From a virus (Duplodnaviria; Heunggongvirae; Uroviricota; Caudoviricetes), in IMG/VR virus record IMGVR_UViG_3300014515_000023: a stretch of DNA of 9,984 nucleotides; one strand, given 5' to 3'. This document shows, one piece after another, positions 6,343 through 7,316 of the stretch. A model generated the notes under the pieces. The model had not been told where the DNA came from, did no database searches, and saw only the letters and a program-made list of their open reading frames with translations. The translations under genes and the position numbers were made by a program. Positions within the stretch are counted from its first letter, which is position 1; each line of letters begins with the position of its first letter.

Positions 6343-6386
6343 CACTTATTTTCCCTGGCTCGCTTTTGCGGGCTTTTTTTAAATGT

Positions 6387-6600
6387 CTCACAATTCAGGC
6401 GGTTGACTGTTGTCTGGTTTGCGGGGAGTTTGTTAAAAGAAACTGGCATGGTGAATCCCCCTGTGCGGAGGGGCAATCAGCGAGTAGGTATATGGGATAA
6501 TCGCGGATTCAGGTGCTGGTACTGAATTCACCGGGAGGCACCCGGCACCATGCAATGGCACATAGCGCCACTCTCCAGCCCCTCTCCGGAGGGGCTTTTC
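6387..6600 (+). repeat. Structured repeat unit, copy 1 (promoter-like box, two conserved hairpins, intrinsic terminator)
   Basis: Shares these blocks with copy 2: CTCACAATTCAG; TTGAC(T/A)GTTG; TTTGTTAAAA; CATGGTGAATCCCCCTG(T/A)GCGGAGGGGC; CTGAA(T/C)TCACCGGGAGGCACCCGGCACCATG; AGCCCCTCTCCGGAGGGGCTTT. Terminator stem GCCCCTC/GAGGGGC at 6578-6595 plus T4. Confidence 0.6.
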
Positions 6601-6790
6601 TGTGCCGGATACATCACAGTTTCTGGAACCTTAGGTACTACAGTATCAGTCAGGGTGCTATATTTTCAGATGTGATGAAAGCCTGTCAGCAGGCAGGGCG
6701 TATCGGAAATGACCCAGTAGAGAAAACGTTGACTCAGATACCGGTGCTGAGTTACCGGGAAACCGGCATCACATGACCGCTATCCTTCCA

Positions 6791-6817
6791 GGCCCATCCG
6801 CTCCGGTGGGCCTTTTT
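6791..6817 (+). terminator. Intrinsic terminator between the two repeat units
   Basis: Stem GGCCCA (6791-6796), loop TCCGCTCCGG, stem TGGGCC (6807-6812), T5 (6813-6817). Confidence 0.6.
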
Positions 6818-6854
6818 ACTGCAGAAAACAGGTTCCCCGTTAAATGCTATGTTG

Positions 6855-7088
6855 CTCACAATTCAGTAAGTTGACAGTTGCCTGTCAGACTGGGCATTTG
6901 TTAAAAAAATTTCGCATGGTGAATCCCCCTGAGCGGAGGGGCGACTGGTGACGGTATAATCTCTGATTATCAAAACGAGAATGACGCGGGTTTAGTGGCA
7001 CCGGGCTGAACTCACCGGGAGGCACCCGGCACCATGTGCATGATGATACAGATACGCGGCTTTAGCCCCTCTCCGGAGGGGCTTTCTT
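6855..7088 (+). repeat. Structured repeat unit, copy 2 (diverged tandem copy of 6387-6600)
   Basis: Same conserved blocks as copy 1, with -35 TTGACA at 6871-6876 and a consensus -10 TATAAT at 6955-6960 in the diverged central part. Terminator stem GCCCCTC/GAGGGGC at 7065-7082 followed by a T-rich run. Confidence 0.6.
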
Positions 7089-7094
7089 ATGGAC

Positions 7095-7123
7095 AAAAAA
7101 AGCCCGCGCTGGGAGACGCGGGC
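7095..7123 (-). terminator. Possible minus-strand intrinsic terminator or protective stem-loop
   Basis: A7 (7095-7101), stem GCCCGCG (7102-7108), loop CTGGGAGA, stem CGCGGGC (7117-7123). The T-run exists only on the minus strand. No minus-strand gene is evident upstream of it. Confidence 0.3.
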
Positions 7124-7316
7124 GGCAAGGAATAAACAATAAAACGTGAAGTAATATTTCAGCTGGCGAATAATACCCCATAGTAATCACTCTGCGCAAC
7201 TGCGCGGTCTTTTTCGAATTGCGGGCTGTAGTCTCCCTTCTGCCATTGTCCTGTAACTTCCGGACTTCAGCCTGCTCCTTATCTGACTCACAACATTATC
7301 CCGCCCGGGAGGATTC

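What the first reader, a model, noticed from the sequence alone, without database searches (positions are those of the whole stretch)
6343..7316. stx-less Stx-phage-like scaffold: tRNA array followed directly by non-coding repeats and nanS-p
The synteny Q - tRNAs - [cargo slot] - nanS-p-like esterase - holin matches what I recall of Shiga-toxin-converting phages, but no stxA/stxB-like ORF exists between the tRNAs and the esterase. The slot holds the structured repeats plus about 250 bp of unique sequence containing at most a tiny ORF (6675-6776, 33 aa, immediately followed by the terminator at 6791-6817). This may be an ancestral or toxin-lost configuration, and the cargo slot is a recombination hotspot worth comparing across strains.
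Basis: partly seen in the sequence, partly recalled or inferred. Interest (0 to 1): 0.45.

Follow-up and report, generated by a model that had tools for sequence, protein, structure and literature searches.

The report
Small-RNA genes where Shiga toxin sits
This is the late-gene "cargo slot" of a toxin-free E. coli prophage: where related phages carry Shiga toxin genes it carries a tandem set of already catalogued small regulatory RNA genes, so it is real but ordinary.

Summary
The order is Q, DNA methylase, three tRNAs (ileZ/argN/argO type), 974 non-coding bases, a nanS-p-type esterase and a holin, with no stx remnant.

The slot is not empty. It holds three same-strand paralogs of the STnc100/EcOnc27/PasD small-RNA superfamily:
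- Two score well above Rfam's threshold.
- The supposed "unique 250 bp" is a third, strongly diverged copy. The 33-aa ORF inside it is very probably not a gene.

A convergent minus-strand RNA gene follows the array. It matches the Hfq-bound RNAs EcOnc08/21 of O157 Sakai prophage Sp4.

Stx2a phages share 93-94% identical left flanks. In them the 1335-bp stx2AB cassette sits exactly where sRNA copy 1 plus the diverged copy (6385-6855) sit here. Other prophages carry stx1, TerB, IraM, a TolA-like gene or nothing at that point. All 13 sequenced-record loci examined keep a last STnc100 gene before nanS-p.

This "moron site with convergent sRNA genes" was described by Tree et al. 2014. Sakai Sp4 is a published stx-less example whose sRNA is about 99% identical to copy 1. 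Whether this form is ancestral or toxin-lost cannot be decided, and nothing suggests a recent deletion. Only the diverged middle paralog seems undescribed.

The parts
3742..4431 (+). Q antiterminator gene, the upstream anchor of the late operon
   Evidence: Pfam PF06323, E = 1.4e-83. RefSeq annotates it as 'bacteriophage antitermination protein Q' in CE10.
4432..4524 (+). Putative late promoter PR' (TATAAA at 4447-4452) and first terminator tR' (stem 4503-4515 plus T-run)
   Evidence: Sequence and terminator scan. The position directly after Q matches the 933W annotation. The promoter assignment is inferred, not tested.
4994..6043 (+). N6/N4 DNA methyltransferase gene
   Evidence: Pfam PF01555, E = 2.7e-44. 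The same gene lies upstream of the tRNAs in Stx2a phages.
6093..6342 (+). tRNA operon: CAT-anticodon tRNA (annotated tRNA-Ile, ileZ type), tRNA-Arg(TCG) and tRNA-Arg(TCT)
   Evidence: ARAGORN and Rfam tRNA hits. The genes align base for base with ileZ-argN-argO of 933W.
6357..6384 (+). Intrinsic terminator of the tRNA operon. Its end is the left breakpoint shared with Stx2 phages.
   Evidence: Terminator scan. It is annotated as a terminator in 933W. Homology to Stx2a phages ends at 6384.
6387..6607 (+). sRNA gene 1 (STnc100 family), an ortholog of EcOnc05 of Sakai prophage Sp4, with terminator at 6577-6600
   Evidence: Rfam RF02076, 136 bits, at 6417-6607. Window 6343-6598 is 99.2% identical to Sakai Sp4, where the Hfq CRAC peak EcOnc05 lies and a ~222-nt Northern band was seen. 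The 5' end near 6385-6392 is inferred from that band size.
6646..6826 (+). sRNA gene 2: a strongly diverged paralog of the STnc100/PasD superfamily, with a TGcTATATT extended -10 at 6656-6664 and a terminator at 6790-6817. It contains the 33-aa ORF.
   Evidence: Rfam STnc100 gives 30.1 bits, E = 0.0017, below the gathering score of 47. My own model R1 gives 45.2 bits, E about 2e-10, over the full model length. The MFE fold has the same multi-branch architecture. A sequence-only profile does not find it. The ORF has no Shine-Dalgarno sequence, and 5 nonsynonymous against 2 synonymous codon differences between its two alleles.
6855..7094 (+). sRNA gene 3 (STnc100 family), the allele found directly downstream of stx2B in some Stx2a phages, with terminator at 7064-7087. 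Its start is the right breakpoint.
   Evidence: Rfam RF02076, 165 bits, at 6885-7094. It aligns with the post-stx2B sRNA of KH16-043 and 933W from the TCACAATTCAG box onward. The EcOnc27 Northern bands of 235/247 nt place the 5' end near that box.
7095..7169 (-). Convergent short RNA gene equivalent to EcOnc08 of Sakai Sp4, with a TTGCGC-18-TATTAT promoter-like site at 7199-7170 and a terminator at 7123-7102 plus T-run
   Evidence: Terminator scan. Fold z-score of -3.5. The Sakai Hfq CRAC peak EcOnc08 maps here, starting right after the TATTAT. It occupies the position held by AsxR or AgvB in other prophages.
7175..7260 (-). Region equivalent to the Hfq-bound peak EcOnc21 of Sakai Sp4, possibly part of a longer (~271 nt) minus-strand transcript
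   Evidence: Mapping of the Sakai peak coordinates onto the window. The 5' end is not determined.
7192..7212 (+). Last plus-strand terminator-like hairpin before nanS-p
   Evidence: Terminator scan. It is conserved in 933W and other loci.
7317..9170 (+). nanS-p-type sialate O-acetylesterase gene
   Evidence: Pfam DUF1737, SASA and DUF6645. Homologous to 933W L0105 and Sakai ECs_1088.
9243..9536 (+). Holin S (P21 type)
   Evidence: Pfam PF04971, E = 2.3e-32. 93-94% identical to the holin region of the Stx2 phages.

Best explanation
Window 6343-7316 is the 'moron' (extra-cargo) slot of the Q-dependent late operon of an stx-negative lambdoid prophage of E. coli. Instead of a protein cargo it carries a cluster of small, self-contained RNA genes.

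- Three are tandem plus-strand paralogs of the Hfq-binding STnc100/EcOnc27/PasD sRNA superfamily. Each has a conserved upstream box and its own intrinsic terminator.
- One is a convergent minus-strand RNA gene (EcOnc08/21 type) that abuts the last STnc100 terminator.

In closely related Stx2a phages the stx2AB cassette lies exactly where the first two paralogs lie here. It is bounded on the left by the tRNA-operon terminator and on the right by the TCACAATTCAG box that opens the last sRNA module.

Inferred mechanism:
- In the lysogen, transcripts from PR' stop at tR', and each small RNA is made from its own promoter and stopped by its own terminator. These RNAs act in trans through Hfq on host and prophage mRNAs.
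- After induction, Q-modified RNA polymerase reads through all seven plus-strand terminators between Q and nanS-p, and so expresses nanS-p and the lysis genes.
- Cargo differences between prophages arise by homologous recombination in the conserved flanks and within the sRNA genes themselves.
For: Shown here:
- Gene identities.
- Two STnc100 hits at 136 and 165 bits.
- A third full-length hit at 45 bits with a model that excludes it, against a background of at most 18.6 bits.
- The family structure holds across 19 copies: 97.8% of cells are paired, and 22 of 36 pairs show changes on both sides. No shuffle out of 500 reaches these values, and slid controls give 40-50% paired with at most 5 such pairs.
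- Exact breakpoints at 6384 and 6856 against Stx2a loci, where 1335 bp of stx2AB replace 471 bp here.
- No stx remnant.
- In all 13 sequenced-record loci examined the last element before nanS-p (in Sakai Sp3, which has no nanS-p, before the holin) is an STnc100-family gene. It is followed by a minus-strand gene in 11 of them: AsxR, AgvB, an AgvB-like RNA, the EcOnc08 type, or iraM. For 2B8 and Sp3 the minus-strand partner was not checked.
- Seven plus-strand terminators lie between Q and nanS-p.
- In 80 of the 81 further loci that hold the diverged copy (E. albertii and IMG/VR contigs), it sits after or between STnc100 copies wherever the contig allows.

From the literature:
- Convergent Hfq-bound sRNA pairs lie 3' of PR' in the moron site of Sakai prophages (PMC4104026).
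- EcOnc05, EcOnc08, EcOnc21 and EcOnc27 have Hfq CRAC peaks and Northern bands.
- STnc100 copies are transcribed in EDL933 and one gave a Northern signal (PMC5331693).
- nanS-p expression rises on phage induction (PMC10462455).
Against: - No expression data exist for this exact prophage. Promoters and 5' ends are inferred from ortholog band sizes and consensus-like motifs. The simple promoter scan did not flag the plus-strand sRNA promoters.
- The middle paralog is below Rfam's gathering score and invisible to a sequence-only profile. In its PhiR5_2 allele the predicted closing helix is weakened.
- That paralog was never seen without a neighbouring STnc100 copy, so it might be a decaying duplicate rather than a working gene.
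- The trans-acting function of STnc100-family RNAs is still unknown in the literature.
- Q-dependent read-through was not tested here.
Confidence: 0.85

Rival explanations
1. Toxin-lost derivative: this prophage descends from an Stx2 phage that lost stx2AB by deletion or replacement.
For: The flanks are 93-94% identical to Stx2a phages up to the exact cassette boundaries. Most phage-database relatives are Stx converting phages. Zhu et al. suggest stx may be repeatedly lost after integration.
Against: There is no stx promoter, coding or 3'-flank remnant. The 471 bp in its place are two intact, terminator-bounded sRNA modules that recur as a fixed array in about 12% of complete E. coli genomes and in E. 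albertii. Many other cargos share the same boundaries, so allele exchange by flank recombination explains the pattern without a loss event. The Q gene differs from that of the Stx2a relatives, which shows mosaic ancestry.
Confidence: 0.12
2. Ancestral empty site: this is the pre-insertion configuration from which Stx phages arose by insertion of the stx moron.
For: stx-less prophages with the same tRNAs and nanS-p are common (3413 of 5426 genomes match the 3-kb region). The stx cassette has the layout of an inserted moron between a terminator and the next promoter box.
Against: The window is not the minimal form. Sakai Sp4, phage phi315 and an O111 prophage have the tRNA terminator followed by a single sRNA module. 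The window has two additional modules, so it is itself derived by duplication or insertion. The direction of change cannot be read from these data.
Confidence: 0.1
3. The middle 250 bp encodes a small protein (the 33-aa ORF 6675-6776, or the 87-aa GTG ORF) rather than an RNA.
For: The 33-aa ORF is intact in both alleles, the window's and PhiR5_2's.
Against: There is no Shine-Dalgarno sequence upstream and no Pfam match. There are 5 nonsynonymous against 2 synonymous codon differences between the alleles, and several of those changes keep an RNA hairpin paired. A full-length covariance-model match and a shared fold tie it to STnc100. In EDL933, STnc100 copies generally show low ribosome coverage, although some copies are higher.
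Confidence: 0.04
4. The STnc100-like elements act mainly in cis as structured leader elements of the late transcript, for example in processing, stabilising or regulating the nanS-p/lysis mRNA, rather than as trans-acting sRNAs.
For: They always lie in the late-operon orientation directly upstream of nanS-p or the lysis genes. The core is unusually conserved for a base-pairing sRNA. The minus-strand RNA region runs up to the nanS-p 5' end.
Against: Each unit ends in a strong intrinsic terminator. Discrete Hfq-dependent bands of 222-247 nt are seen in uninduced Sakai. PasD relatives have many RIL-seq trans targets.
Confidence: 0.08

Closest known systems
Late region of E. coli O157:H7 Sakai prophage Sp4 (ileZ1-argN1-argO1, EcOnc05, EcOnc08/EcOnc21, ECs_1088)
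   Same: It is stx-negative and has the same three tRNAs and terminator. Its sRNA region is 99.2% identical to window 6343-6598. It has the same minus-strand EcOnc08/21-type element and a nanS-p homolog. All of these RNAs were catalogued as Hfq-bound.
   Different: Sp4 has a single STnc100 gene, whereas the window has that gene plus a diverged paralog plus a second STnc100 allele. Sp4 has an AraC-family gene upstream of the tRNAs instead of a methylase.
Stx2a-converting phages (KH16-043, the prophage of strain 10, Stx2_95; and more distantly 933W)
   Same: They share the methylase, tRNAs and terminator at 93-94% identity, the same last STnc100 allele, the same EcOnc08-type minus-strand element, nanS-p and the holin.
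   Different: They carry stx2AB (1335 bp) where the window has 471 bp of sRNA genes. Their Q gene is different. 933W has AsxR rather than the EcOnc08-type element and has no methylase.
STnc100 (Rfam RF02076), also called EcOnc27 or sRNA103
   Same: Copies 1 and 3 match over the full model length at 136 and 165 bits, with the same multi-branch fold and terminator.
   Different: The pre-terminator region, where the EcOnc27 Hfq peak and probe lie, differs between alleles. The function is unknown. Only over-expression effects on fimZ and espA are reported.
PasD1/PasD2 sRNAs of EPEC E2348/69 (Pearl Mizrahi 2021; Zhu, Shabalina and Storz 2026 preprint)
   Same: They are prophage-borne, lie directly upstream of the sialate esterase gene, and are structurally related to STnc100 while diverged in sequence. 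The PasD of phage 2B8 scores 38 bits with both Rfam and my model, similar to the window's middle element.
   Different: The window's middle element shows no BLAST similarity to the 2B8 PasD locus. It is not found by a sequence-only profile that does find PasD, so it is a different diverged branch.
Anti-sRNAs AsxR and AgvB (Tree et al. 2014)
   Same: They occupy the same place and orientation: convergent with, and abutting, the last STnc100 gene upstream of nanS-p. They share the upstream flank and have a -10 element at the aligned position.
   Different: The window's element lacks the conserved ~42-nt 3' region. It gives no Rfam AsxR or AgvB hit at E <= 1 and has a different, longer terminator hairpin.

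Membership tests
Stx-converting phage | Carries stxA and stxB | tested here: not met
   tblastn of Stx1A/B and Stx2A/B gives E >= 0.5. blastn of the whole cassettes gives only 15-18 nt chance matches. No Pfam hit in the slot ORFs.
Stx-converting phage | Late-region synteny of Q, (tRNAs), cargo, nanS-p, holin, with sequence homology of the flanks | tested here: met
   The left flank is 93.8% identical to an Stx2a phage, the right flank is homologous from 6856, and the holin is 94% identical.
Lambdoid late-operon moron slot (Juhala 2000; Tree 2014) | Located downstream of Q/PR', holding self-contained units with their own terminators, and with content that varies between related phages | tested here: met
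   Q lies upstream. Each RNA unit ends in an intrinsic terminator. At least seven alternative contents sit at the same boundaries.
STnc100 (RF02076) | Covariance-model score at or above the gathering score (47 bits) | tested here: met
   6417-6607 scores 136.3 bits and 6885-7094 scores 165.4 bits.
STnc100 (RF02076), middle element 6646-6826 | Covariance-model score at or above the gathering score (47 bits) | tested here: not met
   30.1 bits, E = 0.0017. My own model R1 gives 45.2 bits, E about 2e-10, full length. I therefore file it as a diverged relative in the same superfamily as PasD, not as an Rfam-level member.
STnc100/PasD superfamily | Closing long-range helix around a multi-branch core, followed by a Rho-independent terminator, supported by covariation | tested here: met
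   Folds. RNAalifold gives 8 of 36 compensated pairs. Across 19 copies, 22 of 36 pairs change on both sides and 97.8% of cells are paired, and controls fail to reach this. Caveat: that alignment was fitted to the model.
STnc100/PasD superfamily | Expressed, Hfq-bound RNA | not testable with these tools
   Only by orthology. EcOnc05 (about 99% identical to copy 1) and EcOnc27 have Hfq CRAC peaks and Northern bands in Sakai. No data exist for the middle element.
Anti-sRNA family (AsxR/AgvB/EcOnc03) | Length of 51-60 nt with a conserved ~42-nt 3' region, and matches to Rfam RF02702 or RF02703 | tested here: not met
   No AsxR or AgvB hit in the window at E <= 1. The alignment shows a different body and terminator. 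The element instead matches the Sakai EcOnc08 peak.

The most novel reading that the evidence does not exclude
The diverged middle element (6646-6826) may be a working, so far unnamed third branch of the STnc100/PasD sRNA superfamily. It would have arisen by tandem duplication inside the moron slot, with a different single-stranded 'seed' region and therefore different targets. It is kept as a fixed STnc100 / diverged copy / STnc100 array in about 12% of complete E. coli genomes, in E. albertii and in at least 117 IMG/VR contigs. If so, this slot is a place where prophages generate new regulatory RNAs by duplication and divergence.
Probability: 0.45. Interest if true: 0.3.

Novelty: already known. 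Interest (0 to 1): 0.2.

Why it matters
The practical lesson concerns annotation. The stretch between the phage tRNAs and nanS-p should be annotated as RNA genes, not treated as empty DNA or given spurious small ORFs. RefSeq currently places a pseudo-CDS across sRNA copy 1.

The result also gives base-exact boundaries for the stx2 cassette relative to an stx-less allele: the tRNA-operon terminator on the left and the TCACAATTCAG box on the right. These boundaries are useful for typing what occupies this slot across strains.

Biologically it adds little to Tree et al. 2014 and the Pas sRNA work. The exception is the diverged middle paralog, a modest lead on how prophage sRNA families diversify.

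Tried and rejected
- **Residual stx.** I looked for remnants at the protein and DNA level and found none.
- **Minus-strand element as AsxR or AgvB.** There is no Rfam hit and the alignment shows a different body. The weak OmrA-B hit (25 bits, E = 0.25) is treated as a chance, terminator-driven match.
- **Middle element as PasD.** BLAST in distant mode finds it in only 5 phage records, and phage 2B8, which carries PasD, is not among them. The PasD locus of 2B8 is a different sequence.
- **Sequence-only detection of the middle element.** An nhmmer profile fails to find it. Its assignment therefore rests on the covariance models, the fold and its genomic context.
- **Promoters.** The consensus promoter scan found no plus-strand sRNA promoters. 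By eye there are two candidates per module: a -10-like TTAAAT/TATGTT just before the TCACAATTCAG box, which fits the 222-247 nt Northern bands, and an internal TTGYCT-18-TGtTAAAAR. I could not decide between them.
- **Long minus-strand RNA.** I could not find a convincing promoter for the ~271-nt minus-strand species reported for EcOnc08/21. The GATAAT at 7300-7295 would give about 194 nt.
- **Direction of evolution.** The junction sequences show only that every cargo shares the same boundaries. They do not show which state came first.
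Full report
**What is in the window**

The window is the late-regulatory and lysis region of a lambdoid prophage of E. coli. The 974-bp region of interest is 100% identical in many complete genomes, including CE10 (O7:K1), APEC O18 and several human isolates. At least 80% of it is present in 353 of 5426 complete genomes.

Pfam and ARAGORN give this gene order:
- DUF968, RusA, then Q antiterminator (3742-4431)
- a small ORF
- N6/N4 DNA methylase (4994-6043)
- tRNA(CAT) at 6093-6168, tRNA-Arg(TCG) at 6176-6252 and tRNA-Arg(TCT) at 6266-6342
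- 974 non-coding bases
- a DUF1737-SASA-DUF6645 esterase of nanS-p type (7317-9170)
- a P21-type holin (9243-9536)

RefSeq annotates the CE10 copy in the same way. It shows no RNA genes in the gap, only a pseudo 'hypothetical protein'.

**Checking the observation**

- There is no stx. The longest ORF in the slot is 87 aa, slot ORFs hit no Pfam family, and Stx1/Stx2 proteins and whole stx cassettes find nothing above chance in the window.
- The repeats are real.
- The 33-aa ORF and the terminator at about 6790-6817 exist.

**What the 'non-coding repeats' are**

Rfam identifies two full-length copies of the sRNA family STnc100 (RF02076). One lies at 6417-6607 (136 bits) and one at 6885-7094 (165 bits). 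A weak third match lies at 6646-6819 (30 bits, E = 0.0017, below the gathering score of 47).

I built a covariance model from 12 STnc100 copies, none of them the weak element. Scoring every position, it gave:
- window 6664-6826: 45 bits, E about 2e-10, over the whole model
- the allele of that element in phage PhiR5_2: 50 bits
- the published PasD locus of phage 2B8: 38.5 bits
- the Sakai Sp3 sRNA locus: 38.5 bits
- background: at most 18.6 bits

The three window elements fold into the same architecture. A long-range closing helix surrounds several hairpins and is followed by a terminator.

Across 19 copies, 97.8% of pair cells are standard pairs and 22 of 36 pairs change on both sides. No shuffle out of 500 reaches this, and slid controls give 40-50% paired. 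The caveat is that this alignment was fitted to the model.

A sequence-only profile does not detect the middle element. Its assignment therefore rests on structure and context.

The 33-aa ORF inside the middle element has no Shine-Dalgarno sequence. Between its two alleles, 5 nonsynonymous and 2 synonymous codons differ, and several of those changes keep a hairpin paired. So the 'unique 250 bp' is very probably a third, diverged RNA gene and not a coding or spacer sequence.

**The minus-strand element**

Immediately after the last STnc100 terminator there is a strong minus-strand terminator (7123-7102 plus a T-run).

At this position 933W has the anti-sRNA AsxR on the minus strand. Other prophages have AgvB or an AgvB-like RNA there. 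The window's element is a different allele: it gives no AsxR or AgvB hit and has a different body.

The window's allele is the one present in Sakai prophage Sp4. There, Tree et al. recorded the Hfq-bound peaks EcOnc08 and EcOnc21 on the minus strand, with a Northern band of about 271 nt. Mapped onto the window these peaks are 7169-7097 and 7260-7175. EcOnc08 begins right after a TATTAT -10-like hexamer.

The same allele follows stx2 in some Stx2a phages and occurs in stx-negative phages.

**Relation to Stx phages**

The synteny is true homology, not a loose resemblance.
- Most phage-database matches are Stx2 and Stx1 converting phages.
- Against Stx2a phage KH16-043 and the Stx2a prophage of strain 10, the window is 93-94% identical from 4497 or 5100 up to 6384. 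That position is the end of the tRNA-operon terminator.
- Homology resumes at 6856, at the TCACAATTCAG box that opens the last sRNA module.
- Between those two points the Stx2a loci hold 1335 bp (the stx2 promoter and stx2AB). The window holds 471 bp (sRNA copy 1 and the diverged copy).
- In 933W the order is argO, terminator, stx2AB, STnc100, AsxR (minus strand), nanS-p.
- The Q gene itself is not shared with these Stx2a phages, which is the usual lambdoid mosaicism.

**What else occupies the slot**

A 3-kb query across complete E. coli genomes matches in 3413 of 5426 genomes. I examined 13 sequenced-record loci. Between the tRNAs (or Q) and the last STnc100 gene they carry:
- stx2AB
- stx1AB
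- TerB plus DUF3927
- DUF3927 (with iraM on the minus strand replacing the antisense RNA)
- a TolA-like gene
- LpxR-type and TciB-type genes (phage 2B8)
- nothing (phage phi315, an O111 prophage, Sakai Sp4)
- extra sRNA copies (the window and PhiR5_2)

Each STnc100 module brings the same ~75-bp upstream box whatever precedes it.

STnc100 alleles are themselves mosaics. A highly conserved core is combined with different central and pre-terminator segments, and some copies are chimeras of the window's two copies. This supports recombination within the slot.

The diverged middle element occurs in 673 of 5426 complete E. coli genomes, as two alleles. It also occurs in the E. albertii type strain and in 117 IMG/VR contigs. 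In 80 of the 81 loci fetched, it lies directly after an STnc100 copy and, where the contig continues, before another. The array usually sits between the tRNAs and nanS-p.

**How it most likely works**

This part is inferred, not shown. The region from Q to nanS-p has seven plus-strand intrinsic terminators.

By analogy with lambda and 933W (established knowledge; 933W annotation):
- In the lysogen, PR' transcripts stop at tR' just after Q.
- The tRNA operon and each small RNA gene are independent units with their own promoters and terminators.
- After induction, Q-modified polymerase reads through everything and expresses nanS-p and the lysis genes. This fits the reported rise of nanS-p expression on induction.

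Evidence that the RNAs are expressed comes from orthologs only:
- EcOnc05, whose region is 99% identical to copy 1, gives a band of about 222 nt.
- EcOnc27 gives bands of 235 and 247 nt and is Hfq-dependent.
- EcOnc08 and EcOnc21 have Hfq CRAC peaks.
- STnc100 copies are transcribed in EDL933.

Those band sizes place the 5' ends near the TCACAATTCAG box. An internal promoter-like site, TTGYCT-18-TGtTAAAAR, is also present. It corresponds to a clear TTGACT-17-TTAAAA in the 2B8 PasD locus. The true starts are not settled.

**Comparison with what is known, and verdict**

Tree et al. [quoted passage not shown] They named Sp5 (stx2) and the stx-less Sp3, Sp4, Sp9, Sp10, Sp11 and Sp17. Later work covers related ground:
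- Zhu, Shabalina and Storz (2026 preprint) relate PasD to STnc100 and place these genes next to the esterase.
- Other papers place STnc100 about 75 nt downstream of stx2B and link variants there to clinical outcome.

'Ancestral' and 'toxin-lost' are both undecidable from these data. Nothing points to a recent deletion, and the window is not the minimal form.

The only element I could not find described is the diverged middle paralog and its fixed three-gene array. That is at most a new member of a known kind. Interest is low.

Noticed in passing
window 4432-4524 (+): Directly after the Q stop codon there is a TATAAA hexamer (4447-4452), and about 50 nt later a strong terminator (GCCGTCAGGCGGT followed by nine T). 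This is the expected PR'/tR' pair and would give a short leader RNA like lambda 6S or StxS. Rfam gives only a sub-threshold STnc370 hit on the opposite strand (39 bits against a gathering score of 54).
   Followed up: partly
window 6436-6561 (-); L001 7094-7219: RefSeq annotates a partial pseudo 'hypothetical protein' (CE10_RS30830) lying entirely inside STnc100 copy 1. None of the RNA genes in the slot is annotated. Phage records likewise place PHANOTATE 'hypothetical proteins' over these RNAs (L011).
   Followed up: partly
L003 (933W) about 4790-4806; equivalent to window 6897-6915: The two variants reported to abolish HUS-predictive features downstream of stx2B are a T/C SNP at +90 and a T deletion at +103 (PMC12711010). 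Allowing an offset of one base, they fall in the conserved CATTTGTTAAAAAAATTTCGC motif of the STnc100 module. That motif is the candidate internal extended -10 promoter and the 5' region of the RNA.
   Followed up: no
L005 2130-2750 (E. coli NCCP 13905): In prophages carrying iraM, the whole interval between the last STnc100 terminator and the nanS-p start codon is replaced by a minus-strand iraM cassette. That interval includes the EcOnc08/21-type RNA, so iraM takes the place of the convergent sRNA gene.
   Followed up: partly
Alignment A5 (window copies, L005-L012): STnc100 alleles are modular. An almost invariant core (GCATGGTGAATCCCCCTG..GGAGGGGC and CTGAAYTCACCGGGAGGCACCCGGCACCATG) is combined with at least four unrelated pre-terminator segments. 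The copy in L010 pairs the window copy-2 5' half with the copy-1 3' half. The core is far more conserved than is usual for a base-pairing sRNA.
   Followed up: partly
window 23-104 (+): There is a sub-threshold Rfam hit to isrK (26 bits against a gathering score of 50). In phage PhiR5_2 a full isrK / C4-antisense pair lies upstream of an antirepressor gene (L004 1203-1401), so a diverged C4/isrK-type immunity RNA may lie at the left edge of the window.
   Followed up: no
window 792-1937 (+): This 381-aa protein combines an N-terminal HTH_3 domain with a Peptidase_M78 (ImmA/IrrE-like) domain. It lies next to a 204-aa ORF with no Pfam match, upstream of the DUF968-RusA-Q block.
   Followed up: no
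L052 5258-8289; L021 2742-5019 (IMG/VR contigs): Some viral contigs carry four STnc100-family hits in one late region, including a duplicated methylase-tRNA-sRNA block. Others carry a further weak (31-bit) variant next to a single strong copy. The array can therefore expand beyond three genes.
   Followed up: no
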